From: a virus
DNA length: 47,795 bases
IMG/VR virus record: IMGVR_UViG_3300037088_000099
Location: 1-47,795 of that record
Direction: 5' to 3' (one strand)
Shown: in pieces, positions 1-47,795 of the stretch
Layout of the letters: every line of letters starts with the position of its first letter
How positions within the stretch are numbered: the stretch's first letter is position 1
The notes under the pieces: generated by a model
What the model saw: only the letters and a program-made list of their open reading frames with translations
The model's database searches: none
What the model was told of the DNA's origin: nothing
Program-made: the position numbers and the translations under genes

Positions 1-127
1 TATAATGAACCTAGCCCCAGTACGGATGAGGCGAGAAAGACTCCGATTGGAGTAGGATGTATACCATGCAGATTACAATTACACTCACGGATGCACAGGA
101 ATCCGCCCTGTTTATGATGGGGAAGGA
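1..127. repeat. terminal direct repeat, left copy
   Basis: Bases 1-127 are identical to 47669-47795; genome unit is 47668 bp. Confidence 0.9.
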
Positions 128-4881: not shown

Positions 4882-5226
4882 ATGATCGCATGTGATTTAA
4901 ATCACTATAATGATGCTATAATGTATCTAAAAGGTGCTAGACATGATTTATCTGTAGCAGCTGCAAAACTTCAAGCCATGGGCGAAGGAGATGGTTGGCC
5001 TGAGTGGTATAAAATGGCTGAAACTGAAACGATAAGAGAGTTATTCCGGAAAGAAAAATGGTATAGCCCTGAAATGGATAATATACCAGAATTCATCTTA
5101 TTTCGCGGATTGCTTAGTAATTGGACACCGCGCAAAGAACAAGAGAGTCAAATAAAAATTGCTGCCGAGCGCATAGCAATTTATCAATGGGTAGAAGGTG
5201 AGATTATAAAAACATGGCACTCTTGA
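4882..5226 (+). CDS. hypothetical protein (AT-rich gene)
   Basis: 114-aa ORF with AGGAG upstream. Visibly more AT-rich than neighbouring genes. Confidence 0.6.
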   Translation: MIACDLNHYNDAIMYLKGARHDLSVAAAKLQAMGEGDGWPEWYKMAETETIRELFRKEKWYSPEMDNIPEFILFRGLLSNWTPRKEQESQIKIAAERIAIYQWVEGEIIKTWHS

Positions 5227-6074
5227 GTAACGGTCAACTTGCGAAATGCCCGCGATGCGGGATGAATATAGCTGGTGTACGGCTAACCACGGGACAAATA
5301 GCATATCATTGTACTTGGACATTTTGCGAGGATAAGAATAAAACACTGTGGAATTCTGAGATTCTTGCGCGTCCTGTACTCACACAAGCGCAGAAAGATT
5401 CTTATCGCATATCCGCAATGCTAAAAGCAGGCCAGAGTAACGCGCAGATACCAGGATTTTTTGCACAAGCATACGCACAAGCACAAGCTCCAACTGGCTC
5501 GCATCCAAATAATACACAGCCGATATACCCGATATACTCAGCACAACCGAGGCGCACTTCCATGAAAGAAATCCGAATAACATATCTCTACAACAATACA
5601 ATCGTAGAACTATATTTCATAACCATGCCACGCAAAGGCTGGTTCAAAGACAACATCCAGCCAGTTATAGATGTTATGAAAAATATGATTCCCGCGAACG
5701 CGCGTGAATACGACCCCGCGACGTTCAAATGGCAGATTGCGATTGAGTATTGGCCCGCGTTGCGACAGATATTGACCTCCACACAATTCGCGGTAAAGGA
5801 AGTATCGCCCTCTACTTCGCACGCGAACGTACCCAAAGATTATGCAGAGAATTTCTATCACGCGCCAGTAAAACGCGAGGTTGAGACGAAGGAGTCTATA
5901 CTTGTGCTGCTTGCAAAGCTACTCGGAATCCATGAGGATATTGCGAGTATGGAGCTGGTCGCGCTGAAAAAGAAATATCGTGAGGCTGCACGCCGATACC
6001 ATCCTGACCTCGGTGGAGATGCTGCGAAGATGGCGGAGTTGAATCGAGTTTGGAGTATATACAATACTAATTAA
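5214..6074 (+). CDS. J-domain (DnaJ-like) protein with N-terminal CxxC motif
   Basis: C-terminus LVALKKKYREAARRYHPDLGGDAAKMAELNRVWSIY has the HPD tripeptide in a helix II/III J-domain context. N-terminus has CPRCG. Confidence 0.8.
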   Translation: MALLSNGQLAKCPRCGMNIAGVRLTTGQIAYHCTWTFCEDKNKTLWNSEILARPVLTQAQKDSYRISAMLKAGQSNAQIPGFFAQAYAQAQAPTGSHPNNTQPIYPIYSAQPRRTSMKEIRITYLYNNTIVELYFITMPRKGWFKDNIQPVIDVMKNMIPANAREYDPATFKWQIAIEYWPALRQILTSTQFAVKEVSPSTSHANVPKDYAENFYHAPVKREVETKESILVLLAKLLGIHEDIASMELVALKKKYREAARRYHPDLGGDAAKMAELNRVWSIYNTN

Positions 6075-7553: not shown

Positions 7554-8203
7554 TACAGAAACCAATCGTCTCTAGCAACGGGCGAATTCTTACCGGATTG
7601 GCTGCGCGGAAAGCACAGCTCGCGTCTGAGCTTGGGTTGCCGCAGGAGCTAAAACCGGGGCAGATGGAGCATAGGATTGGAATAGTATTTGATGATTCTG
7701 GTTCTATGCGAACGGATATGATCGAAGACGCGCATGTAGGATGCGAGGAATTCTTACGCTACTGCGAACCGAATAAAACCGCGGTATGTGTATATCCTAT
7801 GAACGCGGATGAGCTGTCGCTTAGTACGAATCTTCCTGCGCTCGCTATGCTTATCAATGGTATCCACGCAACAGGTGGGACTCCGTTGATTCAAAAGCTC
7901 AGTAAGATGCTGCGCGCGAATAAGCTCACACGCGCGATCGTATTTAGTGACGGGTGCCCGCAGTCGTATTCAGACGTAGACTATAATTTCTGTGTGGAAT
8001 CTAAGATTCCGGTAGACACAGTATTCATTGGTTCTGGCTATGGTAGCGAGTTCATGCAAAAGCTCGCCTCTGATTGCAACGGCATATTCCTGCAATTCGA
8101 GCGCGGAAAGTCTAATTTTCGTACTGCATTCAAATATCTGAGTCCCGGACTTCGGTATATGCTTGCGGACTCTTCATTCAGGGAAAAAATACAAGGGAGA
8201 TAG
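7535..8203 (+). CDS. von Willebrand factor type A (vWA) domain protein
   Basis: MIDAS-type DxSxS motif in IGIVFDDSGSM, then ATGGT and IVFSDG motifs in vWA order. No signal peptide. Confidence 0.75.
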   Translation: MPSLTVIQKPIVSSNGRILTGLAARKAQLASELGLPQELKPGQMEHRIGIVFDDSGSMRTDMIEDAHVGCEEFLRYCEPNKTAVCVYPMNADELSLSTNLPALAMLINGIHATGGTPLIQKLSKMLRANKLTRAIVFSDGCPQSYSDVDYNFCVESKIPVDTVFIGSGYGSEFMQKLASDCNGIFLQFERGKSNFRTAFKYLSPGLRYMLADSSFREKIQGR

Positions 8204-8204
8204 C

Positions 8205-9323
8205 GTGCCACTCACCCAAGAACAAGCACTTATCACCGCGCTCCTATCTCAAAAGCTTTCTGCGCTACGTATTCGCGCGAGCTTCGAGAGTGTCGAGCCG
8301 GGGCCAATAGTCACAACCTATTACATGCATCTCGGTGCTGATATTCCTATCTCCAAAATAATGCGAGCGGAGGAAGACCTTGCGCTGGCAGTTGGAGCAC
8401 CGAGCGTACTTATAACACGAAAGGGGGCTTCAATTGCGATTGCGATTCCGAATAAGGAAAGAACTGTCGTATCTTACGATTCTTGTTTGCACTCACTTAT
8501 GCAGGATGCTAATTGTCAGTTGCCAATTATGCTTGGAGTTGACACGAAAGGTAATGAGAAACATATTGATCTTATCGAATCACCGCACATTCTCATTGCA
8601 GGTAGTACAGGTGCAGGCAAGTCAGTATTACTTGCAGCAATCATTAGTGGGCTTGCTACAGCCAAGAGTAAGCATGAACTCAAAATGATGCTTGTAGACA
8701 CCAAGCAGCTTGATCTAACTCTATTTGCAGACCTCCCGCATGTAGTGGAGGTCGCAGATGATTTAGAGAAAGTGCATTTGCTACTTGATCGCTTACACAT
8801 CATAGTCCGCCAGCGTACAGCGAAGATGAAGGGTATAGCACGGAATCTTTCTGAGTACAACGCGCTGGGCGATCATCAACTTCCGTATTATGTAGTTGTT
8901 ATAGATGAGCTTGCAGATGTGCTAATGCAGGATCGAAGTGCCGGGAAAGGAATACGAGGATATGAAAAAGCTGAAACAAAGCTACAGGGTTTATTGCAGA
9001 TATGCCGCGCAGCGGGAATTCACATCATTTGTGCTACACAACGCCCCTCGGTGGAAATTATTACTGGTGATATTAAAGCTAATATACTTACGCGAATTGC
9101 ACTTAGGCTACCTAGTGGGGCTGACAGTAGAACTGTATTAAATGAATACGGAGCCGAAAAACTCCTCGGACGTGGAGACATGCTTATCGAATCCCCCTGC
9201 TTCGACCAAATAACCAGATTCCACGGGCCGTTTGTGAGCATGGCTCATATAGCAAGCGTGTTGGATAACTGTGATGGTATTAGGAATAGTTATAAAATGC
9301 TGGAATCGAGTATCGGGTTGTAG
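8205..9323 (+). CDS. FtsK/SpoIIIE-family DNA translocase ATPase (motor domain only)
   Basis: Walker A IAGSTGAGKSVLL, Walker B YYVVVIDELADVL, and a C-terminal block ICATQRPSVEIITGDIKANILTRIAL that closely matches the FtsK motor. GTG at 8205 with AGGGAG upstream sits 1 nt after the vWA stop; the ORF track's longer TTG start is at 8163. Confidence 0.8.
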   Translation: MPLTQEQALITALLSQKLSALRIRASFESVEPGPIVTTYYMHLGADIPISKIMRAEEDLALAVGAPSVLITRKGASIAIAIPNKERTVVSYDSCLHSLMQDANCQLPIMLGVDTKGNEKHIDLIESPHILIAGSTGAGKSVLLAAIISGLATAKSKHELKMMLVDTKQLDLTLFADLPHVVEVADDLEKVHLLLDRLHIIVRQRTAKMKGIARNLSEYNALGDHQLPYYVVVIDELADVLMQDRSAGKGIRGYEKAETKLQGLLQICRAAGIHIICATQRPSVEIITGDIKANILTRIALRLPSGADSRTVLNEYGAEKLLGRGDMLIESPCFDQITRFHGPFVSMAHIASVLDNCDGIRNSYKMLESSIGL

Positions 9324-11770: not shown

Positions 11771-12043
11771 ATGATTCCGTCACAACCCGCAAGCAACTCC
11801 GCAACGCAAACCCCTTCCCCCACGGCGGCTACTTCGGTAGCCGTCCCGCCTATGAGATTAGACGTGTCCGAGTCCGTGTGGCCGACTAGCACGATCCTGC
11901 ATGAAATCGAATGGTGCGCAAATCGTATCGCTACGCTTGAACCAATGTTATCCCGCAAGCCTTCAAAGAAGTGGGAAATAGCAGACCTGCGAAGGCAGAT
12001 AAAAGACAAGCGTGCAGTGATTGATTACAGGAGAACTCGGTGA
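11771..12043 (+). CDS. hypothetical protein
   Basis: 90-aa ORF in the same-strand array; an antisense ORF overlaps it, so confidence is modest. Confidence 0.4.
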   Translation: MIPSQPASNSATQTPSPTAATSVAVPPMRLDVSESVWPTSTILHEIEWCANRIATLEPMLSRKPSKKWEIADLRRQIKDKRAVIDYRRTR

Positions 12044-12354
12044 CCGCTGATCCCCAACCCACGCCAAAGGCTCCCGCCCGAACATGGCAGGAACAGGTTG
12101 CCAACATTCAGCGCAATTTGGCCGCAAAGACTATGAGTTGCGACCGTGACACTCACCGAAACGATAACCCGCAATGGATTGAAGAGGAGAAACAAATGAA
12201 TCTTGGCCCTCGTTGTAATTTTATGCTCCCGAATCATTGTCAGTGTCCGAATACTGCATTAGCGGATTCGGATATGTGCGAATTACATAAGGAATTTCAA
12301 ACAGAACAAGCCGTTGCGGTAGAACAAGCGAAAATTGAAAAACTGGAGAAGTAA
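12040..12354 (+). CDS. hypothetical Cys-containing protein
   Basis: 104-aa ORF overlapping the upstream gene by 4 nt. Confidence 0.5.
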   Translation: MTADPQPTPKAPARTWQEQVANIQRNLAAKTMSCDRDTHRNDNPQWIEEEKQMNLGPRCNFMLPNHCQCPNTALADSDMCELHKEFQTEQAVAVEQAKIEKLEK

Positions 12355-15823: not shown

Positions 15824-15895
15824 TTGCTCTCACAACTAGAGGGGCAGAAATGTCCCTCTACTTAAACGCAAAATTTAATACCCGGAGAGTAAAAA

Positions 15896-16627
15896 ATGAA
15901 AATCGTTCAACCATATGCGAAAATTATAGAGCCTGAGTTATTGGCACAAGCACTTCAGCGGATTGAAGCCGCTGCCCGCATCAGCCACAGAAGCGAAGAT
16001 GGACAGACAGCAGATACAGCAGAAAAGTTTATTCGTGCTGTTGTATTAGGACACGGTGATTGGTCAGTTGTGGAACACGTTTCCGCATCAGTCGAGTTTC
16101 TTGTGGATCGCGGCATTACACATGAAATCGTGAGACACCGGATTGCCAGTTATACGCAGGAGTCCACGCGGTTTGTAAACTACGCAAAGAAGATGTTGCC
16201 CAGCTTTATCTATCCCATCGTTGGGGTAGAGTGCCCGTACTGCATTGCTGGGGAAGAAGTACGCAAGCGCGATTCTTTGGGTGGCAACTGGGGCCACGAT
16301 AACCTAATTAAATGCCCGTATGATCCTCTGTGGTTAACTGCGATTGATACCTTAGAAAAATCGTACACTGCTTTGATCGCACAGGGATGGCGACCACAGG
16401 AAGCGCGGTCTGTTTTTCCCAACGCCCTATCCTCAAAGATTCTCGTGACTTGTAATCTGCGTTCATGGCGTCAAATCTTTCTGATGAGAACGAGCAAAGA
16501 AGCACATCCACAAATGCGTCATGTGATGATTCCTCTGCTAGCTGATTTTCAGAGGCTTGTGCCGGTACTCTTTGAGGATATTATTCCCGAGTCGCGGCAA
16601 GTTGAAAATATAGCGAGGGGAAGATAA
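15896..16627 (+). CDS. thyX: flavin-dependent thymidylate synthase (ThyX)
   Basis: ThyX signature RHRIASYTQESTR (RHR ... S ... R) at the expected position in a protein of about 240 aa. Contains an extra Cys-rich segment CPYC...CPYD. Confidence 0.8.
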   Translation: MKIVQPYAKIIEPELLAQALQRIEAAARISHRSEDGQTADTAEKFIRAVVLGHGDWSVVEHVSASVEFLVDRGITHEIVRHRIASYTQESTRFVNYAKKMLPSFIYPIVGVECPYCIAGEEVRKRDSLGGNWGHDNLIKCPYDPLWLTAIDTLEKSYTALIAQGWRPQEARSVFPNALSSKILVTCNLRSWRQIFLMRTSKEAHPQMRHVMIPLLADFQRLVPVLFEDIIPESRQVENIARGR

Positions 16628-18171: not shown

Positions 18172-19393
18172 CAGTTATGTAAACGCTATTACTCCGATCA
18201 CTGAGGCTCCTGATGCGTATGTGTATTGGTCAGCCATCTCAGTGGTCAGCGCAGTTCTTAAAAAGAAAGTGTGGATACAACGTGGGACATTCAAAGTCTA
18301 CCCCAATCAATACATCATACTTGTTGGGCCGCCGGGAGTTGGCAAAGGAACCGCAATGCATCCCGCTCACGCATTTATCAAAGAGTATAAACCTGAACTT
18401 TCAAACTACCTCAGTGATCGAATCACCGCTCCTGAAATCATTTCGCGTCTGGCTGCTGGGTTCCAGACCCAGAGCATAGTTAATGGCCACGTAGTAACCG
18501 CAACCGAATCCACAGCATGTATCATGGCAACAGAACTTAGTACATTTTTAGGTAGCAGCGATTGGATGACTTCATTTCTCTGTGATACTTGGGATAGGAG
18601 TAAATTTGAATATGGGACTAAGAATAAAGGCAGTTATGCTATTAAGGACATGTGCGTTTCTCTTATCGGTGCTTGTGTTCCAGATTTTATCCGCAGGATT
18701 AACGGTAAGACTAGTTCCGCGGAGGCTATTAATAGCGGCTTCACGGCTCGTACTATATTCGTATTCGCAAATGAAAAGTCCAAGAAACTACCCTGGCCCA
18801 CTCAGCTCAAGGATACTAATGGCGGAGCGGATACGATCACTAATCTACGATACGACCTCGAACAAATAGCACAGGTCAATGGCGAGTACACATTCACACA
18901 AGAAGCAATCGACACATTTAACCAATGGTACGCGAAACTCGGTGCCACAGACACAGACTCAGATGTAGTCCGGCACTTTAAAAGTCGCCAAGATGTACAC
19001 GTATTCAAAGTCGCAATGTGTCTTGCGGCTGCGAGTAACGACAAACTTGTAATAGATCGTTGGTGTTTATTCACAGCGATTCAATTAGTACAAGGCGTAC
19101 TTGATACGCTGGATATAACATTTAGGGGGGTGGGAGAGAGCACACTTAGCGAAGCCACAGCAAAGGTTCAAACGTATTTGGAGAGAAAGGGCATAGCAAC
19201 ACGTGCAGAGCTAGTACGCGATAATGCTCGTCATGCGACAATGGAAGATTTAGATAGAATCATTTTAACACTACACACGATAGGTTTAGTAAGACCATTT
19301 TCAACGGGAGGCCGCCAGTACTATGAATACACCAAGCAGGGAGCAGGACATGTTGGGACGCCGGGAATTAGAATTGGAAACAACGTCCCTTGA
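18140..19393 (+). CDS. P-loop NTPase (AAA-like Walker A), candidate replication helicase or loader
   Basis: Walker A ILVGPPGVGKGT near residue 62 of 417. Lies directly downstream of the polymerase. Family not resolved. Confidence 0.55.
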   Translation: MARKLPQNWISSYVNAITPITEAPDAYVYWSAISVVSAVLKKKVWIQRGTFKVYPNQYIILVGPPGVGKGTAMHPAHAFIKEYKPELSNYLSDRITAPEIISRLAAGFQTQSIVNGHVVTATESTACIMATELSTFLGSSDWMTSFLCDTWDRSKFEYGTKNKGSYAIKDMCVSLIGACVPDFIRRINGKTSSAEAINSGFTARTIFVFANEKSKKLPWPTQLKDTNGGADTITNLRYDLEQIAQVNGEYTFTQEAIDTFNQWYAKLGATDTDSDVVRHFKSRQDVHVFKVAMCLAAASNDKLVIDRWCLFTAIQLVQGVLDTLDITFRGVGESTLSEATAKVQTYLERKGIATRAELVRDNARHATMEDLDRIILTLHTIGLVRPFSTGGRQYYEYTKQGAGHVGTPGIRIGNNVP

Positions 19394-19919
19394 TAATACG
19401 ATTTTTGTTGTTGCAGGGAAGCTGGGATTAGAAGCAATTGAGGATAAAATTCTAATTCTAATCGACAAATTCAAAAGCGGTTACGAATGTAAAGATTGCA
19501 ATGAAACGGGGATATATGTCAGTTGTGAGTGCGAACGAAAAGGAACTCCGGGCCGCTACATCAGTGGAAACATTGATCGAGCGTGCCGATTTTGCGAAGG
19601 CAATTACGAAGAGCGAAGAGGAAAAACGTGCCCTTCTTGTCACGGAACTGGCAGCACAATTATCATGCCTGACAATGCAAAAGCTATACCTACTTCTGGA
19701 GTTATCGTCAGCATTGGCCCAGGCTGCAAGACTAGAAAAATCGCTGAGCGAGTTCTGTTCTCGGCTCACACCGGATACTTCCTGCCGTTTAAAGGAAATG
19801 CAAAAATAAGATGTATGCGGGAGGATGAGCCGTTGTGTTTAATCCATGCTATAGACAACACTCAAACGCTTGGAGATTTTCTACAAATCGAGGATTCACT
19901 TGAAACGCTAAATAAATAA
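19350..19919 (+). CDS. zinc-ribbon protein with GroES-like C-terminal segment (hypothesis)
   Basis: ATG at 19350 with GGGAGCAGGA upstream. Four CxxC/CxC pairs including CPSCHGTG, then IIMPDNAKAIPTSGVIVSIGPG...RVLFSAHTGYF...REDEPLCLIHAI, which is loosely Cpn10-like. Confidence 0.5.
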   Translation: MLGRRELELETTSLDNTIFVVAGKLGLEAIEDKILILIDKFKSGYECKDCNETGIYVSCECERKGTPGRYISGNIDRACRFCEGNYEERRGKTCPSCHGTGSTIIMPDNAKAIPTSGVIVSIGPGCKTRKIAERVLFSAHTGYFLPFKGNAKIRCMREDEPLCLIHAIDNTQTLGDFLQIEDSLETLNK

Positions 19920-20620: not shown

Positions 20621-20670
20621 GCAGCAAAAAGAATGGCCACTCTATTAACTTAGAGTGGCCATTTTAGTTT
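20621..20670. terminator. bidirectional intrinsic terminator
   Basis: Perfect 12-bp stem AATGGCCACTCT / AGAGTGGCCATT (20632-20643 and 20652-20663) with an A-run on one side and a T-rich run on the other. Lies between the last + gene (stop 20610) and the last - gene (stop 20743). Confidence 0.65.
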
Positions 20671-20742: not shown

Positions 20743-23700
20743 CTAGTTGATGAGAGTGTAGCTGTAGCACCCCGGATTCACCGCTAATGTTCCGGGGATC
20801 GACACAGTGAAACTTGTACCGGCTGTCCGGGCCGTAATCACAGGATTGACAATTGAAGCCAAGGTAGTGTTGCAAGTCACGCCAAGGGCAGAGCCAATTG
20901 AGGTATCAGGGTATACAGCAATTGTGCCGACTCCAGTTGTGTGGGTAGTGTTGACTGTCACGGAAGTGGAACCGGCTGCAATTATAAAAAATCCCTGTGA
21001 TGCGCTGGCGCAGGCGGCAGGAGAAGCTATAGAGACACACTGAGAAGACATATTGAGTGTGCCCGATGTTACCGACGTGAATAGACTCGTGTTCGGTGTT
21101 GTAAATCCAATCGGCCCTGGTGATGCAAACGTAGCCCCATTCAATGCCGTTGCATTTATCGTTCCCGTGCCGGATGCGCCGAGGCTTGCGCCACTTCCGA
21201 CGACCATTGCCGCTGTCGTATTAGTAGCACTGGTAATCGCGGAAAATGCAGGAGTGCTTGTTCCGCAGACTCCGCCCCCCGTCCCATCCGCAAGGCAGTG
21301 GGCTTCTGGTACTCCGCTACCATTCAAGTCTGTGCTGCCCGCTCCTGCTGAAGATACGCCTATACTGCTCACCCGAAACTGATTGGCCGTGCCGACGTTG
21401 AACATAGAAGTCGCAGTCGTGTCACCGATGCTGACGTTGCCTGCAAAGGATGAGTTGCCTGTGGCTGTTACAGTCAAAGGCACATAAGTTGTTACTGCTG
21501 TGCTGGAAAAGCTAATCGGTTCAATGCTTGCGGTAGCGTCCCACAAAGCAAGCAACCCTGTTCCAAAACCAGACCCTGTGCCAGTGCTTTCTAATGCCCA
21601 GTTATGCCCTGCTGCTGAGGTGTTGTTTAAGTAAAATGTTGTGGCATAAGCTGATGAAGTTAGATTTAGCGCCAATGGGTTTGTCGTTAATACATCAAGC
21701 GCTGCTGCTGGACTCGTCGTCCCGATGCCCAGTCTATGATTCGTCGCATCCCAGAAGAAATTGGAATTGTCTTGTGCGATGGTTGAGCCATTTGAGAACA
21801 ACACGGAGCCAGAGGTTAGCGAAGGCAAAGTGAATGTCCCGTAGGTATTTGTATCCAGCGCAAACGTGCCCGCCGCCGTCATCTTCACAAATGATGGAGA
21901 TACATAAGTAGGATAATTCAGTGCTGCCCAGTTGCCGAGAGTAGGGGTACCACTCACCTGCGAGTAGGGCAGACTTAGGCTGGGCAGCGTTGTCAGCGTC
22001 GAGTTGCTCGTAGCGGTGATGTTCGCCGCCGTGCCAGTAAATGATGTTCCATGCACTATTCCCTGTAAGTAAGTGTCTGTTATACTTGAATTTCCTAGTG
22101 TCGTGGTGTTGCTGCCGTTGCCAGTAGCTGCGTTTCCGATCACATTTTCGTTTGTGTCGCCGTCAGCAAAAGCATACGTCGATGCACCTATATATGTGCT
22201 ACTTGAACTTGTCGTATTAGCAACACTACCACCAGACTTGTATTGCCCTGCCTGCGACCCTATTGCAACATTTGTGCTACCTGTCGTAATGTTCTTTAGG
22301 GCCATCGCACCTATTGCTGTATTATTTGTACCTATTGTAAGAAATTCAAGGGACTGATAACCAAGCGCGGAGTTAGTGCCACCATACGTAGCAGCCCCAA
22401 GCGAGTCATCTCCGACGGATGTATTGTATGATGCTGTCGTAGAAAATGCCTGAGAACTTTCTCCGATAGCAGTATTGCCATTGCCGATGGTATTGACGTG
22501 CAGGGCATAATGACCCAGAGCGGTGCTGTAACTACCCGAAGTGGTGCCACCAAGTGCTCCGTAGCCAACTGACGTATCATCACCCCCGGTACTAGCTGTG
22601 GGCAGTGATCCTCCTATATTTGCGTTGCCAGTTCCAAACCAACTGATCGGCGCACCACTATCCTGAACCGCATCTCCTGTACCAGTAAAGGTTGCGGCAT
22701 CATTGGCAGTCGGACTTCCGGGGCCGGTGACGGGATTGGTGAGTGCCGCTTGCTTGTTGTTGAAGGTGTTCCAATCAGTGCTGCTCAGATAGCCGCTCGT
22801 AGAGGTCGAGGACTGAGCCATCCGGGCGAGTGCAACCGTTCCACTACTCAGGTTGGAAGCATTCGAGGCATAAGTCTCGGCATTGCTCTGAGCCGTTGCC
22901 GCCGCTCCAGCCGCATCCGCTCCCACGCTTGCTGCTGTCGCAGAGATCGCCCCAGCCGTATTGAGAATAGAAGTTCCGTCCGGCTTGACTCCACCTAATA
23001 CGGAAGACGTTGCAGTGGGAAGAGTATAGCTGCCGCTCGGTGTCCCACAGCCACTACCATCTGCCTTCGCGTAGGTGCCAGATGCACAGGATGGAATGGT
23101 GACAGAAGTAAATGCTCCAGCAGCCGGTGTTACGTTTCCGATAGGAGTTGCGTTGATTCCACCGGTCAGGTAGTTGATATTTCCAATCCCGTAAAGCGAA
23201 CCGGATAGGTAAATGTTGCCCTGTACATTCAGCGGCGTTGCGCCGTGTCCGATATCGGTTGCACCGTAGTAGGTAGAGCCGTTGATATTCGTGACTGCCC
23301 AGTTGATCGAGCAGGTCGCGCAGGAACTATAATCGGTAACAATGCCTTGAATTATTCCATTTCCCACCGTTTCAGACCCAGCCGTAGAGTTCACGCCGCG
23401 CACCACACCCGCGAAAGTGTCATTGGGAAAGGTTGTCGTGCTCAGTGACGTATAACAGAAAATCTCACTCTGCTCAAGCGTAGCGCATCCCGGCACAGCC
23501 GCTCCACCAATCGTAGCTATGGTGGGAATAGTGGTCTGCGTGGCTGAGATGTTGCTCGCCAGTTGCCACTCTACATATGGGGTGAACGGTGCAGCATACT
23601 GATTGTGATTCGGGCAAGCATAGCCAGCGCACTCCACCGACACCGCGCTTACAGCCGTGGCCACATTGAGCGTGTTCGCGTCCACAATCGTCGGAGCAAT

Positions 23701-25443
23701 CGCACTCCCGCTCGGCTGGTAGACCGGCACGAATGTATGCCCAGTTGTCCAACTACTCGGCAACAAGCTCCCCACCGATGTAGCTGTAGGTGCAGTGAGC
23801 AGTGCGTATTGTGAGTAGCTTGAGGGGTAGGTAACTCCGTTGAAAACCGAGGAATCCGCCCACTGACCTAACGATGCGATGGGATTTATGAGTGGCACCT
23901 GTACGCCGCCAGAGCCGGAAATCAATTTGGATACAGAGCCTAAAGGAAAAATCGGGTCTGTCCCCCCGTGATTAGCAACCCATACGTTTCCTGATGTGTC
24001 AATAGCTAATCCAGCCGGGTTTCCCGGAGCGCCTATCGTAAATGTCCCCAGCACCACGCCAGAGGAAGATAACTCAGACACGGTGGAATCTCCATGGTTT
24101 CCTACCCAAGCATTGCCTACGGAATCGAAAGCTATGACGTAAGGGGAATTGCCAACTGCAAACGTGCCGAGGACGCTCCCCGATGAAGAGAGCTTTGTTA
24201 TTGTATTAGTGCCGAAGTTTGTAACCCATACGCTGCCCATCGCATCGACGGATACATTTAGCGGCGTGTTGCCGACTGCAAACGTACCAAGAATTGTTCC
24301 GGTCGAAGACAGTTTTACTACGTTATTATTAGACCCTCCATCCGTCACTGCAACCCAAACATTGCCCGCTGCATCGACAGCTATTCCAGTCGGGGAGATC
24401 GCGCCCGTGCTTACGGTGTATGTGCCGAGGATCGAACCGGCAGAAGAGAGCTTGGTTACATTGTTCGATTCGTTGTCAGCAACCCACACGTTGCCAGAGG
24501 CATCGACCGCTATTCCGTATGGGCCAGCCCCACCTAATGTAAATGTTCCCAGCAATACTCCAGCCGCAGATAATTTAGTTACAGTACCAGGGAGTCCAGA
24601 CTGATTATTCCCAACCCAGACATTTCCCTGAGCATCAATTGCCACCCACTCAGGATTGGTACCAACTGCATACGTCCCAAGGATTGAGCCGGACGGGGAG
24701 AGTTCGGTTACTGTATTTACGGAACGATTCGTAACCCACACGTTGCCTACAGAATCAACAGCAAGTAAATATAAATTCACCCCCGCTGAATATGTGCCTA
24801 CAGTAGTTCCAGCTGGTGCCATCCCACAATTCACGCTCGATCCGCTCGTCGTGCAATCCACCGGGGCCGTGGCCGTGACCGCCGTTATAACACCACTGCC
24901 TGCTAAATTAGCCCACACACTGCCATTAAAATATCTAATTGCTTGCCCAAGCACATTATAGTATGTTCCACCCTGTGCTGGCACAGTCACAACTTCAGAA
25001 TCACTATATGCTTTTGGCAGATTCGCAGCATTTACTTGTAGCGCTTTGAGCACAGCAGTAACCGCAGCACTGATATTCTGTGTGCTTCCAGCGGCAGGGA
25101 TAATTAACTGCACGCACTTCGCACTGGCATTCGGGCAAACATTATACAGCCAGCCAGAGCCAGAAGGAGTAATGGCTGTGTTAGTCGGTACACTAAAGGA
25201 GGCACTCCCGCTTCCATCAAGTGCGACAGTAATCGGCGTCATATACTGCACAGGTACAATCGCCCCACCCCAGTAAAAAGGGCCGGGAATTCCCGGAGTA
25301 GGCGAGAATGTATAACTAATAGTTCCATTCGCCCATGCTTGAGCGGTTTGATCTACTACCGTAACGCTCACAGTCGTAGACTGCGCGCAAAGCGGAATCG
25401 CGCCACACAGCCCGAGAAGAATTGCCAATAAAGTCTTTTTCAT
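20743..25443 (-). CDS. tail fibre or tail spike protein with signal peptide and seven-bladed NHL-type beta-propeller
   Basis: 1566 aa from the ATG at 25443 (MKKTLLAILLGLCGAIPLCAQ). Seven repeats of about 40 aa with a GNVWV.N...N.VTKLS core, then AIG-containing repeats and a Gly/Thr/Ser-rich C-terminal half. Last gene of the virion module. Confidence 0.75.
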   Translation of the reverse strand: MKKTLLAILLGLCGAIPLCAQSTTVSVTVVDQTAQAWANGTISYTFSPTPGIPGPFYWGGAIVPVQYMTPITVALDGSGSASFSVPTNTAITPSGSGWLYNVCPNASAKCVQLIIPAAGSTQNISAAVTAVLKALQVNAANLPKAYSDSEVVTVPAQGGTYYNVLGQAIRYFNGSVWANLAGSGVITAVTATAPVDCTTSGSSVNCGMAPAGTTVGTYSAGVNLYLLAVDSVGNVWVTNRSVNTVTELSPSGSILGTYAVGTNPEWVAIDAQGNVWVGNNQSGLPGTVTKLSAAGVLLGTFTLGGAGPYGIAVDASGNVWVADNESNNVTKLSSAGSILGTYTVSTGAISPTGIAVDAAGNVWVAVTDGGSNNNVVKLSSTGTILGTFAVGNTPLNVSVDAMGSVWVTNFGTNTITKLSSSGSVLGTFAVGNSPYVIAFDSVGNAWVGNHGDSTVSELSSSGVVLGTFTIGAPGNPAGLAIDTSGNVWVANHGGTDPIFPLGSVSKLISGSGGVQVPLINPIASLGQWADSSVFNGVTYPSSYSQYALLTAPTATSVGSLLPSSWTTGHTFVPVYQPSGSAIAPTIVDANTLNVATAVSAVSVECAGYACPNHNQYAAPFTPYVEWQLASNISATQTTIPTIATIGGAAVPGCATLEQSEIFCYTSLSTTTFPNDTFAGVVRGVNSTAGSETVGNGIIQGIVTDYSSCATCSINWAVTNINGSTYYGATDIGHGATPLNVQGNIYLSGSLYGIGNINYLTGGINATPIGNVTPAAGAFTSVTIPSCASGTYAKADGSGCGTPSGSYTLPTATSSVLGGVKPDGTSILNTAGAISATAASVGADAAGAAATAQSNAETYASNASNLSSGTVALARMAQSSTSTSGYLSSTDWNTFNNKQAALTNPVTGPGSPTANDAATFTGTGDAVQDSGAPISWFGTGNANIGGSLPTASTGGDDTSVGYGALGGTTSGSYSTALGHYALHVNTIGNGNTAIGESSQAFSTTASYNTSVGDDSLGAATYGGTNSALGYQSLEFLTIGTNNTAIGAMALKNITTGSTNVAIGSQAGQYKSGGSVANTTSSSSTYIGASTYAFADGDTNENVIGNAATGNGSNTTTLGNSSITDTYLQGIVHGTSFTGTAANITATSNSTLTTLPSLSLPYSQVSGTPTLGNWAALNYPTYVSPSFVKMTAAGTFALDTNTYGTFTLPSLTSGSVLFSNGSTIAQDNSNFFWDATNHRLGIGTTSPAAALDVLTTNPLALNLTSSAYATTFYLNNTSAAGHNWALESTGTGSGFGTGLLALWDATASIEPISFSSTAVTTYVPLTVTATGNSSFAGNVSIGDTTATSMFNVGTANQFRVSSIGVSSAGAGSTDLNGSGVPEAHCLADGTGGGVCGTSTPAFSAITSATNTTAAMVVGSGASLGASGTGTINATALNGATFASPGPIGFTTPNTSLFTSVTSGTLNMSSQCVSIASPAACASASQGFFIIAAGSTSVTVNTTHTTGVGTIAVYPDTSIGSALGVTCNTTLASIVNPVITARTAGTSFTVSIPGTLAVNPGCYSYTLIN

Positions 25444-25528
25444 ATTTATACCCACCAGTAAGGAGTTTCTGCATCGTGAACATTTAAGAGCATATAAATA
25501 TGCTCAAAATTAAAATCGAGATTGTACA

Positions 25529-26797
25529 TTAGAGTAACCCCATTCTGGATAACTCATCATATCGCTTGGTTGTGGTTTTTTGCAGATCAGTGCGAATTTG
25601 CATATTGGGAATCTTGAGCTCCTTGAGCCGAATTTCCTGTCGCGCCCAGGCATCTGCTATGGTATCTCCGTATGTTAATGGCACTGCGATAAATCCAGAG
25701 TGCCCCGCAGTAACGAGCTGCTTCTTCTCAATCATTGCATCGTACATGTATGTGTGTAGATATTGCTCCTCGCTGATACCCTCAATCGGAACTCCAACTG
25801 GATGCTTACCCTTAATTTCACTTGGATACGGTGGGATACTAGCGCGTACTCCAACACCAAATTCGCCCTTCCAACTTTGATCCGGCACCTGTCCTGTACT
25901 TATCCGAAAAAGCATTTCGCCAAAATTACCACCATACATGTTAATAAGAGTAGCGCCAGCATCGTAGCCAAATCGTGGAGTCCATTCGAGTCCATATAGT
26001 TTACCATTCGCAACGATTGTATTCAGGTCAATCATTCCTGAGTATCCAATTTTGCTCAGATACTTTTTCATTTTCATCAACCCTTGCTGATATAACTCCG
26101 CGCTCTCCCGAAGATAAAAAACTAAATTACCAGAGCAACCAGTATTCGGCCCTTTATTTCCATTCATGAATTTCTTTTCTTCAAGAGTCACATTCACGAG
26201 ATAGAATTCATCGCCATTGAAATAACCCTCTACTGATACTTCTGTGCCCTTGATAAACTCCTGTAATACAAATGGCGCGCCTTTAGTTTTAATCATCAGC
26301 TTATCAATAACAGCAAGCATGTCTTCAGCATTTTCGGAGACATAAGTAGTCTCAGTATCCTGCTCCTGCCCGCCATCGGGCTTGAATACATATCGTTTGT
26401 TATTTTTGTGGATGTATTCCTTCGCCGCTCCCACATCCGAGAATCGCTCGTATGGTGGTACCTGAATCCCACACTCTTCCATAGCTTCCAACCCAAACAT
26501 ACGATCATCTTCAACCGCGCAGTTAAAAGCGCCGTCGCCAATCGTAGGACATATAGAAGCAGAATACTCTGCCTGCCGCTCCCGCCCGGTCAGATCGAAT
26601 ATACTCAAATCGTATTTAGAATAATTCGGATACCCCTTCGACCCTCGCGCCCGAATATACGGAGCTGGCACTATACCCTTAAGAACATTCCCATAATCCG
26701 GCTCAGTGAGATAAATATCTACCTTATGTCCCTCTTCGAGCAAACGAAGAGAGAACCATGCGCCGTACATTGAATATGTAGAAAGTGCTATTCTCAT
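25529..26797 (-). CDS. ATP-grasp enzyme, PurD-like (phosphoribosylamine-glycine ligase-like)
   Basis: Blocks matching PurD: RYVFKPDGG, FVLQEFIKGTEVSVEGYF, NKGPNTGCSGN (PurD DTGPNTGGMGA) and LEWTPRFGYDAG (PurD EFNCRFGDPE). The N-terminal GNGGREHA substrate loop is not conserved. Confidence 0.75.
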   Translation of the reverse strand: MRIALSTYSMYGAWFSLRLLEEGHKVDIYLTEPDYGNVLKGIVPAPYIRARGSKGYPNYSKYDLSIFDLTGRERQAEYSASICPTIGDGAFNCAVEDDRMFGLEAMEECGIQVPPYERFSDVGAAKEYIHKNNKRYVFKPDGGQEQDTETTYVSENAEDMLAVIDKLMIKTKGAPFVLQEFIKGTEVSVEGYFNGDEFYLVNVTLEEKKFMNGNKGPNTGCSGNLVFYLRESAELYQQGLMKMKKYLSKIGYSGMIDLNTIVANGKLYGLEWTPRFGYDAGATLINMYGGNFGEMLFRISTGQVPDQSWKGEFGVGVRASIPPYPSEIKGKHPVGVPIEGISEEQYLHTYMYDAMIEKKQLVTAGHSGFIAVPLTYGDTIADAWARQEIRLKELKIPNMQIRTDLQKTTTKRYDELSRMGLL

Positions 26798-26822: not shown

Positions 26823-26951
26823 TTACTGCTTGTTGACTGTCTTGCCAGAGTGCTTGGGTGCTTTTCCGCCGCCCTTACCGGGATTACATTCCACACTCTT
26901 AATCTTCGCCCGTACTGCTTCACGTGAAAGAAGTGCTGCCTGTCCTGCCAT
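26823..26951 (-). CDS. small basic protein (42 aa)
   Basis: Manual translation MAGQAALLSREAVRAKIKSVECNPGKGGGKAPKHSGKTVNKQ with AGGAGG 4 nt upstream of the ATG. Fills the gap between flanking genes; different frame from the ORF track's 26819-27070. Confidence 0.4.
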   Translation of the reverse strand: MAGQAALLSREAVRAKIKSVECNPGKGGGKAPKHSGKTVNKQ

Positions 26952-47668: not shown

Positions 47669-47795
47669 TATAATGAACCTAGCCCCAGTACGGATGAGGC
47701 GAGAAAGACTCCGATTGGAGTAGGATGTATACCATGCAGATTACAATTACACTCACGGATGCACAGGAATCCGCCCTGTTTATGATGGGGAAGGA
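47669..47795. repeat. terminal direct repeat, right copy
   Basis: Exact copy of bases 1-127, including the first 71 nt of the ORF that starts at 57. Confidence 0.9.

What the first reader, a model, noticed from the sequence alone, without database searches (positions are those of the whole stretch)
25529..26797. PurD-like ATP-grasp enzyme inside the virion gene block
Sequence blocks match PurD across the ATP-grasp core, but the N-terminal substrate loop is altered. The gene sits between internal virion proteins and the tail fibre, so it may ligate a substrate onto a virion protein or make a metabolite during infection rather than act in purine synthesis.
Basis: partly seen in the sequence, partly recalled or inferred. 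Interest (0 to 1): 0.7.

Follow-up and report, generated by a model that had tools for sequence, protein, structure and literature searches.

The report
PurD-like phage ligase, not PurD
This phage gene has the shape of the purine-synthesis enzyme PurD but belongs to a separate, widespread and unstudied family of ATP-using ligases with rebuilt substrate pockets, kept about as faithfully as the phage's DNA-packaging genes, so it most likely joins some unknown acid and amine late in infection rather than making purines.

Summary

The window is a complete ~47.7 kb podovirus genome with no other purine gene.

The gene belongs to a large clade: 645 representatives at E<=1e-30, with chromosomal homologues in archaea. 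It was found only in uncultivated 40-50 kb phages, always co-directional in the late morphogenesis block but at different positions (TerL-X-portal; capsid-X-tail; large proteins-X-fibre). It is as conserved as TerL and portal, carries inteins in catalytic motifs, and is lost in about 11% of related loci.

Best reading: an active carboxylate-amine ligase with non-PurD substrates, made late in infection. The substrates are unknown. Metagenomic pipelines label such genes purD, and surveys read viral purD as a purine AMG; that label is wrong for this clade.

The parts
25529..26797 (-). PurD-fold ATP-grasp ligase gene (422 aa plus stop codon)
26522..26797 (-). N-domain (aa 1-92): PurD-type Rossmann-like fold with no sequence similarity to GARS_N
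   Evidence: No GARS_N hit; sequence alignments to PurD begin near residue 90; the domain is covered by the structural alignments
26753..26782 (-). beta1-alpha1 loop STYSMYGAWF, replacing PurD's GSGGREHALA loop (PRA phosphate and ribose site)
   Evidence: Translation; PurD comparison; the PurD Arg position is Tyr here and Asp/Glu in 62 of 81 clade members; residue roles from PMC2978367
25838..26521 (-). ATP-grasp core (A and B domains, aa 93-320)
   Evidence: GARS_A and ATP-grasp_3 hits; E96, R99, K139, E206, K208, N259 and R275 invariant across 81 sequences at 26-54% identity
26342..26383 (-). B-loop KPDGGQEQDTETTY (PurD: KADGLAAGKGV); lowest-confidence part of the model
   Evidence: hmmalign; pLDDT block of 67; B-loop role from PMC2978367
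26126..26188 (-). TLEEKKFMNGNKGPNTGCSGN (PurD: SQDHKR...GPNTGGMGA). E206 replaces the glycine-site Asp, K208 is kept, and C221 is invariant in the phage group
   Evidence: an intein is inserted immediately before C221 in homologue P0163
26021..26038 (-). GMIDLN: D257 (80 of 81) and N259 (81 of 81), where PurD has YAGLM; probable metal and phosphate ligands
   Evidence: the role is inferred
25958..25990 (-). LEWTPRFGYDA, the clade signature E-x-T-x-R-x-G-Y that replaces PurD's EFNxR[LF]GDPE (PROSITE PS00184)
   Evidence: (motif in 0 of 507 clade sequences; PurD control positive); an intein is inserted within this motif in P0245
25532..25837 (-). C-domain (aa 321-422): IPPYP, TAGHSGF (PurD: TSGGRV, Arg lost) and MQIRTD
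   Evidence: GARS_C 19 bits, below the 34.8 cutoff; alignments
26823..26951 (-). Conserved 42-aa small ORF directly upstream (MAGQAALLSREAVRAKIKSVECN plus a Gly/Ser/Lys-rich tail) with an AAGGAGG ribosome-binding site. Possible partner or small virion protein; confined to this phage subgroup
   Evidence: absent in the other genome layouts
20743..25455 (-). Downstream tail fibre/spike (context): conserved N-terminal ~200 aa anchor and hypervariable NHL/Vgb-lyase-like propeller
20632..20663 (-). Strong terminator-like hairpin (13-bp stem) ending the late operon. The scan's other minus-strand terminator-like matches between 30000 and this point are short (5-8 bp stems) and lie inside coding sequence

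Best explanation
The gene encodes a catalytically competent ATP-grasp carboxylate-amine ligase. It descends from the PurD lineage and keeps the PurD four-domain fold, but both substrate pockets have been rebuilt, so it is not a GAR synthetase.

Proposed mechanism, inferred from ATP-grasp chemistry: ATP bound by R99, K139, Q179/E180, E186 and K208 phosphorylates a small carboxylate. R275 stabilises the acyl-phosphate. An amine held in the cleft between the N and C domains then attacks to form an amide.

The carboxylate is probably not glycine, because the residues that hold glycine's amino group in PurD are now Tyr278 and Ala280. The amine is probably not a phosphorylated sugar, because both PRA-site arginines are gone; the first is Tyr here and Asp/Glu in most of the clade.

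The gene is co-transcribed with the virion genes, so the enzyme works late in infection. It is a near-core gene of a large clade of uncultivated 40-50 kb podoviruses. I consider a small-molecule product the most likely outcome. The identity of that product is unknown.
For: Shown:
- PurD fold over all four domains.
- Fails PurD membership: no GARS_N, and GARS_C below cutoff. TIGR00877 scores 73.5 bits against a cutoff of 288, while a real PurD scores 582.6. PS00184 is found in 0 of 237, 0 of 150 and 0 of 120 clade sequences, with the PurD control positive.
- Residue mapping against published PurD sites: ATP-binding residues and the acyl-phosphate Arg are invariant across 81 sequences at 26-54% identity. 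The PRA and glycine residues are replaced by clade-specific conserved residues: T273 in 76/81, Y278 in 74/81, D257 in 80/81, N259 in 81/81, D68 in 77/81.
- The genome is complete and has no other purine gene.
- Late-operon context: there is no strong terminator between the structural genes, this gene and the fibre. The gene is co-directional in the late block in 236 loci.
- Strong purifying selection: median identity 44.4% against TerL 42.2% and portal 43.7% over 1,496 genome pairs, and against 29-35% for neighbouring large proteins.
- Inteins sit in catalytic motifs at three or more sites.

Inferred:
- Small-molecule substrate, because the nearest folds are small-molecule ligases (PurD 36.7, PurK 25.6, PurT 24.9, PylC 24.1, BL00235 21.5), while RimK, LysX, TTL and graspetide ligases score 10-17.
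- Brown et al. 2011 rejected haloarchaeal 'extra PurD-like' proteins as GAR synthetases on the same criteria.
Against: - No substrate is identified.
- The canonical Mg-binding Asn is Thr273, so catalytic competence is inferred, not shown.
- The B-loop lacks PurD's Gly-rich GLAAGK sequence.
- Late-operon position and conservation equal to portal and TerL fit a role in virion assembly or a packaged protein at least as well as a metabolic role.
- Loss in 8 of 73 portal-anchored loci shows the gene is not indispensable.
- Cellular archaeal homologues are annotated as PurD. I could not check whether those genomes also hold a canonical PurD, so a non-canonical GAR synthetase is not formally excluded.
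Confidence: 0.55

Rival explanations
1. Virion-protein ligase. The enzyme attaches an amino acid or amine to a carboxylate (or the reverse), or forms an isopeptide link, on a structural or ejection protein during assembly.
For: It is always inside the morphogenesis operon, next to TerL and portal, capsid, ejection-like proteins or fibre depending on the lineage. It is as conserved as portal and TerL. A conserved small Lys/Gly/Ser-rich protein with a strong ribosome-binding site is encoded immediately upstream in this subgroup.
Against: - Its position relative to particular structural genes is not conserved, so no specific partner emerges.
- The small ORF is absent from the other layouts.
- It is lost in ~11% of related loci while the structural genes remain.
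- Chromosomal archaeal homologues have no virion genes nearby.
Confidence: 0.2
2. Packaged or late-made host-directed effector, such as an anti-defence or takeover enzyme. It would be loaded into capsids and delivered with the DNA, or would act at the end of infection, ligating or neutralising a host metabolite or signal.
For: The gene is adjacent to portal or ejection-like proteins. An ATP-dependent enzyme would only work in the cytoplasm. The gene is dispensable in some lineages, which leave decayed remnants; this is typical of conflict genes.
Against: - No PADLOC hit for the enzyme or its relatives.
- No fusion to MuF or other capsid-targeting modules; the long forms are inteins, not fusions.
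- Its substitution rate matches hallmark genes rather than fast-evolving conflict genes.
- No literature precedent was found.
Confidence: 0.12
3. Genuine GAR synthetase: a purine-synthesis auxiliary metabolic gene, as source-database annotation and metagenome surveys assume.
For: PurD is the closest family by sequence and by fold. JGI and NCBI label homologues as phosphoribosylamine--glycine ligase. Viral purD is reported as an AMG.
Against: - Fails the equivalog cutoff, PS00184, GARS_N and GGREHA, and lacks the C-domain Arg and the glycine-site Asp and Glu.
- No PurF or other purine gene is present in this complete genome. PRA has a half-life of about 5 s and is thought to be passed directly from PurF to PurD (PMC2978367).
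- The gene sits in the late structural operon rather than the nucleotide-metabolism arm, which holds ThyX.
- Homologues occur in DPANN archaea. By general knowledge these lack de novo purine synthesis.
Confidence: 0.05
4. Catalytically dead PurD-fold protein reused as a structural or scaffolding component.
For: The Mg-binding Asn is replaced by Thr and the B-loop is non-canonical. The gene sits among structural genes.
Against: All ATP-contacting residues and the acyl-phosphate Arg are invariant across 26-54% identity. Inteins target exactly these motifs. D257 and N259 supply alternative ligands.
Confidence: 0.03

Closest known systems
PurD / glycinamide ribonucleotide synthetase (EC 6.3.4.13; e.g. 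PDB 2YW2, 1GSO, 2QK4)
   Different: - 16-20% identity.
- No GARS_N hit.
- GGREHA becomes YSMYGAW (S..GDG in most of the clade).
- EFNxR[LF]GDPE becomes EWTPRFGYDA.
- GGRV becomes GHSGF.
- The B-loop GLAAGK becomes GGQEQDTE.
- 73.5 bits against the 288-bit equivalog cutoff.
- Encoded in a phage late operon with no purine partners.
'Extra' PurD-like proteins of haloarchaea (Hlac_1553, rrnAC0307; Brown et al. 2011, PMC3261824)
   Same: They are described as lacking GARS_N, the Mg2+ site and the Asp of R[LF]GDPE, with a divergent P-loop, and were judged not to be GAR synthetases. This is the same set of departures seen here.
   Different: They are cellular archaeal genes of unknown function. No phage context was reported.
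Small-molecule ATP-grasp ligases PurK, PurT, PylC and L-amino-acid ligases (BL00235, BacD, RizA)
   Different: They are clearly more distant than PurD and lack the PurD-type C-domain arrangement. No sequence-level family match was found.
LUZ24-group (Bruynoghevirus) phage ATP-grasp with amidoligase and glutamine amidotransferase
   Same: A phage-encoded ATP-grasp enzyme in a ~45 kb podovirus with convergent arms.
   Different: It is 291 aa, lies in the early/replication arm, is paired with amidoligase and GATase genes, and is not PurD-like. No such partners occur here.
Protein-modifying ATP-grasps (RimK, LysX/ArgX, TTL/TTLL, graspetide ligases MdnC/PsnB/CdnC)
   Same: The same superfamily and the same amide or ester ligation chemistry. 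Some act on a peptide or carrier protein encoded next door.
PurZ of Z-genome phages (from my own knowledge; not tested here)
   Same: A precedent for a phage re-purposing a homologue of a purine-pathway enzyme (PurA) for a different product.
   Different: It has a different fold and a different pathway (2-aminoadenine DNA), and sits with nucleotide-metabolism genes. Nothing here points to DNA modification.

Membership tests
PurD / GAR synthetase | Four-domain PurD fold | tested here: met
PurD / GAR synthetase | Pfam GARS_N, GARS_A and GARS_C all above their gathering scores | tested here: not met
   GARS_A 55.2 bits (cutoff 27) passes; GARS_C 19 bits (cutoff 34.8) fails; no GARS_N hit
PurD / GAR synthetase | NCBIfam TIGR00877 purD equivalog cutoff (288 bits) | tested here: not met
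   73.5 bits; the control, an Acinetobacter PurD, scores 582.6 bits
PurD / GAR synthetase | PROSITE PS00184 R-[LF]-G-D-P-E-x-[EQIM] | tested here: not met
   The window has RFGYDAGA. The motif occurs in 0 of 237, 0 of 150 and 0 of 120 clade sequences; the PurD control is positive
PurD / GAR synthetase | N-terminal GGREHA loop (Arg/Glu for PRA phosphate and ribose) and the C-domain GGR arginine | tested here: not met
   Arg becomes Tyr11, Glu becomes Gly12, and the GGR Arg becomes Phe369; residue roles from PMC2978367
PurD / GAR synthetase | Glycine-site residues (human Asp217, Arg292, Asp295, Glu297) | tested here: not met
   They correspond to Glu206, Arg275 (kept), Tyr278 and Ala280
PurD / GAR synthetase | Occurs with other purine-synthesis genes, especially a PRA source (PurF) | tested here: not met
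   Complete genome. Pfam and PHROG scans of all larger ORFs show replication and structural genes plus ThyX only
PurD / GAR synthetase | GAR synthetase activity | not testable with these tools
   Requires an enzyme assay or purD complementation
ATP-grasp carboxylate-amine ligase superfamily | ATP-grasp fold with conserved ATP-binding Lys/Glu and the acyl-phosphate Arg | tested here: met
   R99, K139, Q179/E180, E186, K208 and R275 are invariant in A1. E96, R99, K139, K208 and R275 are invariant in A2
ATP-grasp carboxylate-amine ligase superfamily | Canonical Mg2+ ligands (acid, Glu, Asn) | tested here: inconclusive
   D257 and E271 are present; the Asn position is Thr273 (76 of 81); N259 is invariant nearby
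Protein-modifying ATP-grasps (RimK, LysX, TTL, graspetide ligases) | Closest structural or sequence relationship to these families | tested here: not met
Protein-modifying ATP-grasps (RimK, LysX, TTL, graspetide ligases) | Adjacent precursor peptide or carrier protein conserved alongside the ligase | tested here: inconclusive
   A 42-aa conserved ORF lies upstream in this subgroup but is absent in the TerL-X-portal and capsid-X-tail layouts
LUZ24-type phage ATP-grasp/amidoligase/GATase cassette | ~290-aa ATP-grasp next to amidoligase and glutamine amidotransferase genes in the early arm | tested here: not met
   The gene is 422 aa and in the late arm; no amidoligase or GATase occurs in the genome
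Known anti-phage defence proteins (PADLOC) | Match to a PADLOC model | tested here: not met
   No hits for the enzyme, four relatives or the small ORF
Haloarchaeal 'extra PurD-like' proteins (Brown et al. 2011) | PurD-like, without GARS_N, without the Asp of R[LF]GDPE, with a divergent P-loop and Mg site | tested here: met
   All four descriptive criteria are met. Direct sequence comparison with Hlac_1553 and rrnAC0307 was not possible

The most novel reading that the evidence does not exclude
The enzyme performs a previously unrecognised, ATP-dependent covalent step in tailed-phage morphogenesis or delivery. One version is that it ligates a small amine or acid onto a virion component or onto packaged material. 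The other is that it is loaded through the portal as cargo and acts in the next host. Either would explain why a PurD-fold ligase is kept in the TerL-portal-capsid-tail operon of a large uncultivated podovirus clade at the same substitution rate as terminase and portal.
Probability: 0.25. Interest if true: 0.85.

Novelty: new variant of a known kind. Interest (0 to 1): 0.6.

Why it matters
1. Annotation. Source databases name this clade 'phosphoribosylamine--glycine ligase', and viromics papers count viral purD as a purine-synthesis auxiliary metabolic gene. For this clade that inference is very probably wrong.

2. Biology. An enzyme as conserved as terminase and portal, embedded in the morphogenesis operon of hundreds of uncultivated soil and freshwater podovirus genomes and targeted by inteins, points to a late-infection chemical step that no model phage has. 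No isolate in the phage-record collection carries it.

3. Enzymology. The clade is a natural experiment in re-tooling the PurD scaffold. The phosphate-binding Arg becomes Asp/Glu or Tyr, the glycine-site acids become Tyr and Ala, and the Mg-binding Asn becomes Thr. Cellular members occur in Nitrososphaerota and DPANN archaea.

The protein models with high confidence, and the predictions are directly testable by expression, substrate screening and purD complementation.

Tried and rejected
- LUZ24-type phage ATP-grasp: a different protein (291 aa, early arm, amidoligase and GATase partners), so rejected.
- Fusion partners as functional clues: the 729-870 aa homologues carry inteins with LAGLIDADG endonucleases, not functional fusions. 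The ~500-aa forms have no extra Pfam domain.
- Small upstream ORF as an obligate substrate: it is conserved and has a strong ribosome-binding site, but it is restricted to the window's own genome layout.
- Operon context of cellular homologues: Nitrososphaerota copies sit beside an M1 aminopeptidase, an aminotransferase and an Opp transporter, but the Micrarchaeota copy does not. No robust partner emerged.
- Defence or anti-defence: no PADLOC hits.
- Viral structure library (BFVD): no full-length PurD-fold protein; best TMq 0.44.
- PHROGs: no family for the enzyme.
- Upstream proteins as ejection proteins: hhalign gave only c5~c49 (94%) and a weak c11~c38 (43%).
- Literature searches for a described phage PurD-like ligase found only automatic AMG listings.
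- Technical dead ends: the AFDB50 fold library was unavailable. Model coordinates were not exposed, so no pocket geometry could be computed. The broad alignment A2 was too divergent for locus fishing. Iyer et al. 2009 is not held.
Full report
**Observation**

The ORF is at 25529-26797 on the minus strand (422 aa). Its similarity to PurD is highly significant.
- Pfam GARS_A scores E=1.1e-14, 55.2 bits against a cutoff of 27.
- Solved PurD chains match at 1e-13 with the single sequence and at 3e-21 with a profile of 48 homologues.
- An AlphaFold2 model built on that alignment is confident (pLDDT 92.4, pTM 0.90).
- Foldseek against the PDB returns PurD for the top 15 hits (E down to 1.5e-27, TMq 0.72-0.80, ~440 aligned columns). 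Biotin carboxylases follow at ~1e-17.

There is no GARS_N hit, and every sequence alignment to PurD starts near residue 90.

**It is not PurD**

I took published PurD functional residues from Welin et al. 2010 (PMC2978367) and Yoshida et al. 2022 (PMC8880213). I mapped them with HMM alignments and scored conservation in a close alignment (A1, 48 sequences) and a broad one (A2, 81 sequences at 26-54% identity).

ATP-contacting residues and the acyl-phosphate arginine are kept and are invariant or nearly so:
- R99 (Aquifex PurD K103), K139, Q179/E180, E186, K208, E271 and R275.

Substrate-specific residues are replaced:
- The PRA loop GSGGREHA becomes STYSMYGAW. The Arg is Tyr11 here and Asp/Glu in 62 of 81 clade members.
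- The C-domain GGR arginine becomes Phe369.
- Glycine-site Asp295 and Glu297 (human numbering) become Tyr278 and Ala280, and Asp217 becomes Glu206.
- The Mg-binding Asn of E-x-N becomes Thr273.
- The B-loop GLAAGK becomes GGQEQDTE.

Formal tests agree:
- NCBIfam purD equivalog TIGR00877 scores 73.5 bits against a cutoff of 288, while a bona fide PurD scores 582.6.
- The PROSITE GARS signature R[LF]GDPEx[EQIM] is found in 0 of 237 viral-locus copies, 0 of 150 clade representatives and 0 of 120 close homologues. The PurD control is positive.

Brown et al. 2011 used the same criteria to conclude that two 'extra' haloarchaeal PurD-like proteins are not GAR synthetases. Their criteria were a missing GARS_N, a missing Mg site, a missing Asp in that motif and a divergent P-loop. 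They also noted that all genuine archaeal PurDs keep the motif (PMC3261824).

**Genome context**

The window carries an exact 127-bp terminal direct repeat (1-127 = 47669-47795), so it is a complete ~47.7 kb phage genome. It has two convergent arms.
- The plus arm holds an FtsK-like ATPase, a PD-(D/E)XK nuclease, an AAA_24 protein, ThyX, a family-A DNA polymerase, a DUF3987 helicase and a Cpn10-like protein.
- The minus arm holds a T7-type TerL, an SU10-type portal, the major capsid protein, an SU10-type adaptor, four unannotated proteins (240, 522, 777 and 651 aa), a 42-aa ORF, the ATP-grasp and a 1,570-aa tail fibre.

There is no other purine gene and no tRNA. The only strong minus-strand terminator-like hairpin in the scanned 20-30 kb region (13-bp stem) follows the fibre gene. 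The ligase is therefore very probably part of the late transcript.

The fibre call is sound. It has a PHROG tail-spike hit, and its N-terminal ~200 aa is conserved in 98 relatives while the rest is hypervariable. 'Internal virion proteins' upstream is plausible but not shown. The upstream proteins are positionally equivalent to a trio in another lineage whose largest member has a transglycosylase-like N-terminus. Only c5~c49 is well supported (94% hhalign probability; c11~c38 reaches 43%).

**The family**

A word-indexed search found 1,631 homologues. The best 120 are 52-98% identical, 413-438 aa, and many lie on 46-50 kb contigs. An exhaustive profile search of 1.84 billion representatives found 645 clusters at E<=1e-30, most matching full length including the N-domain. 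The clade has its own signature:
- N-terminal S..GDG.G[LI]A.R
- K-P-x-G-N..T..TY
- T-x-E-x-K-[KR]-[FL]...GP.TGC.G
- G-P-x-D-x-N
- L-E-[FW]-T-x-R-x-G-Y

. No isolate in the phage-record collection has it. The only full-length hit there is an unannotated ORF in a metagenome-derived genome (27% identity), again at the end of its structural block. BFVD holds no PurD-fold viral protein and PHROGs has no family for it.

Homologues at ~28% identity that share the signature are chromosomal in Nitrososphaerota, Micrarchaeota and Woesearchaeota MAGs. They have no purine neighbours.

**Comparative genomics**

I called and clustered genes in 236 viral loci. The ligase is always co-directional within the late block, but its position differs by lineage:
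- (A) adaptor, four proteins, (small ORF), X, fibre. This is the window's layout.
- (B) capsid genes, M15 endolysin-like or a 130-aa protein, X, fibre-like protein, pre-adaptor protein, adaptor.
- (C) HTH small-terminase-like protein, TerL, X, SU10-type portal, Zn-ribbon protein.
- (D) a ~1,750-aa injection-type protein, two small proteins, X.

. The fixed association is therefore with late morphogenesis genes in general, not with the fibre or the ejection proteins.

The ligase is as conserved as TerL and portal: median 44.4% against 42.2% and 43.7% over 1,496 genome pairs. It is much more conserved than the adaptor (31%) or the large neighbours (29-35%), and less conserved than the capsid protein in one subgroup (67%).

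Four representatives carry inteins with LAGLIDADG endonucleases inserted at three or more sites, all in catalytic motifs: before Cys221 of GPNTGC, inside EWT|PRFGYD, and near TLEEKK. Inteins typically settle in conserved sites of functionally important genes.

In a portal-anchored sample, 65 of 73 informative loci have the ligase directly upstream of the portal (median gap 12 bp). Eight lack it. Two have TerL abutting the portal, and two keep short ORFs with residual similarity, apparently decayed copies. The gene is therefore near-core but dispensable.

**Mechanism**

Shown: the fold, intact ATP-binding and acyl-phosphate residues, rebuilt substrate sites, a late-operon location and strong purifying selection.

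Inferred:
- The enzyme follows the standard ATP-grasp route: carboxylate phosphorylation, then amine attack.
- The acid is not recognised through a free alpha-amino group as glycine is in PurD.
- The amine does not carry a phosphate, and may be neutral or cationic, given the Arg-to-Asp/Glu or Tyr change and the conserved Asp68 and Asp257.
- A small-molecule substrate is more likely than a protein, because the closed four-domain PurD architecture is retained and the nearest folds are all small-molecule ligases.

I cannot name the substrates.

Rivals, in order of weight: a virion-protein ligase; a packaged or late host-directed effector; a genuine non-canonical GAR synthetase; a dead structural protein. 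For the second, there are no PADLOC hits. The third is disfavoured by every membership test, by the lack of any PRA source in the genome, and by PRA's ~5 s half-life. The fourth is disfavoured by invariant catalytic residues.

**Novelty and significance**

I found no description of this clade. Papers that mention viral purD list it as an automatically annotated purine AMG. The LUZ24-group phage ATP-grasp is unrelated in size, position and partners. The nearest published observation is the 2011 note on 'extra' haloarchaeal PurD-like proteins.

I rate it a new variant of a known kind: an ATP-grasp ligase on a PurD scaffold with new specificity and a new biological setting. Interest is moderate to high, because a near-core enzyme sits in the morphogenesis operon of a large uncultivated phage clade with an unknown reaction that is directly testable.

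Noticed in passing
window 26823-26951 (-): A conserved 42-aa ORF lies between the 651-aa gene and the ligase. It has an AAGGAGG ribosome-binding site 6 nt before the ATG. The N-terminal ~23 aa are conserved (M[AS]GQSA.L[ST].[KR]E..[KR]A.[IQ][KE].[VI][EQ][CH]N, or the variant MVAPH.HTT.E.K..IK..SHN), followed by a variable Gly/Ser/Lys/His-rich tail of 20-60 aa. It is present in most loci of this genome layout only.
   Followed up: partly
homologues P0163, P0237, P0238, P0245 (profile-search representatives): Inteins (splicing domain plus LAGLIDADG endonuclease) interrupt the ligase at three or more different sites, all in catalytic motifs. One lies directly before the invariant Cys221, which would serve as the +1 nucleophile.
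   Followed up: partly
window 1-127 and 47669-47795: An exact 127-bp direct terminal repeat. The window is a complete (circularly assembled or terminally redundant) ~47.7 kb phage genome. No tRNA genes were found.
   Followed up: yes
window 20743-25455 (-), repeats at 23977-24762: The tail fibre has a hydrophobic, signal-peptide-like N-terminus (MKKTLLAILLGLCGAIPLCAQ) that lies within the conserved anchor region. It also has an NHL/Vgb-lyase-like beta-propeller encoded by seven ~126-nt repeats. Its GC content is higher (0.51-0.54 against ~0.45 for the genome), which suggests a recently acquired receptor-binding module.
   Followed up: partly
L267, L307, L268, L281, L282, L287, L288 (4416-4790), L311 (3370-3951): These related phages have the same TerL and portal families but lack the ligase. 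TerL abuts the portal in two. Short ORFs with weak residual similarity to the ligase (E ~1e-5 to 1e-6) remain in two others, which look like gene decay.
   Followed up: partly
L089-L098, L101, L257-L259 (archaeal MAG contigs): Chromosomal homologues (~28% identity, same EWTPRFGY signature, Glu instead of Cys in GP.TG[CE]) occur in Nitrososphaerota, Micrarchaeota and Woesearchaeota. They are 74-99% conserved among the 120 best hits and are variously named PurD, 'GARS C domain protein' or hypothetical. An M1 aminopeptidase with HEAT repeats lies directly downstream in Nitrososphaerota.
   Followed up: partly
L083 (CAVRHU010000002.1, 198653-219951 of a 638-kb contig): A 52%-identical copy with the same structural neighbours lies inside a 638-kb contig of a Gammaproteobacteria MAG. 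This could be an integrated prophage or a chimeric assembly. Other copies are binned with Terracidiphilus/Acidobacteriaceae and Sulfuriferula MAGs, which gives host leads.
   Followed up: no
window 19323-19919 (+) and 5214-6074 (+): The phage encodes a Cpn10-like protein with a DnaJ-type CXXCXGXG zinc-finger segment, conserved in relatives at the end of the plus arm. It also encodes a separate protein with a weak J-domain match, which hints at co-chaperone hijacking.
   Followed up: no
window 8163-9323 (+): An FtsK/SpoIIIE-family ATPase (E=2.4e-32, with an FtsK alpha domain) sits in the early arm of a podovirus that also has a conventional T7-type terminase.
   Followed up: no
L001 (MW202796.1), 11946-12191 and 15894-16304: The distant Manatee Spring phage that carries a 27%-identical ligase also has ORFs annotated 'ubiquitin' and 'GNAT N-acetyltransferase' within the same structural block. 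The ligase itself is unannotated in that record.
   Followed up: no
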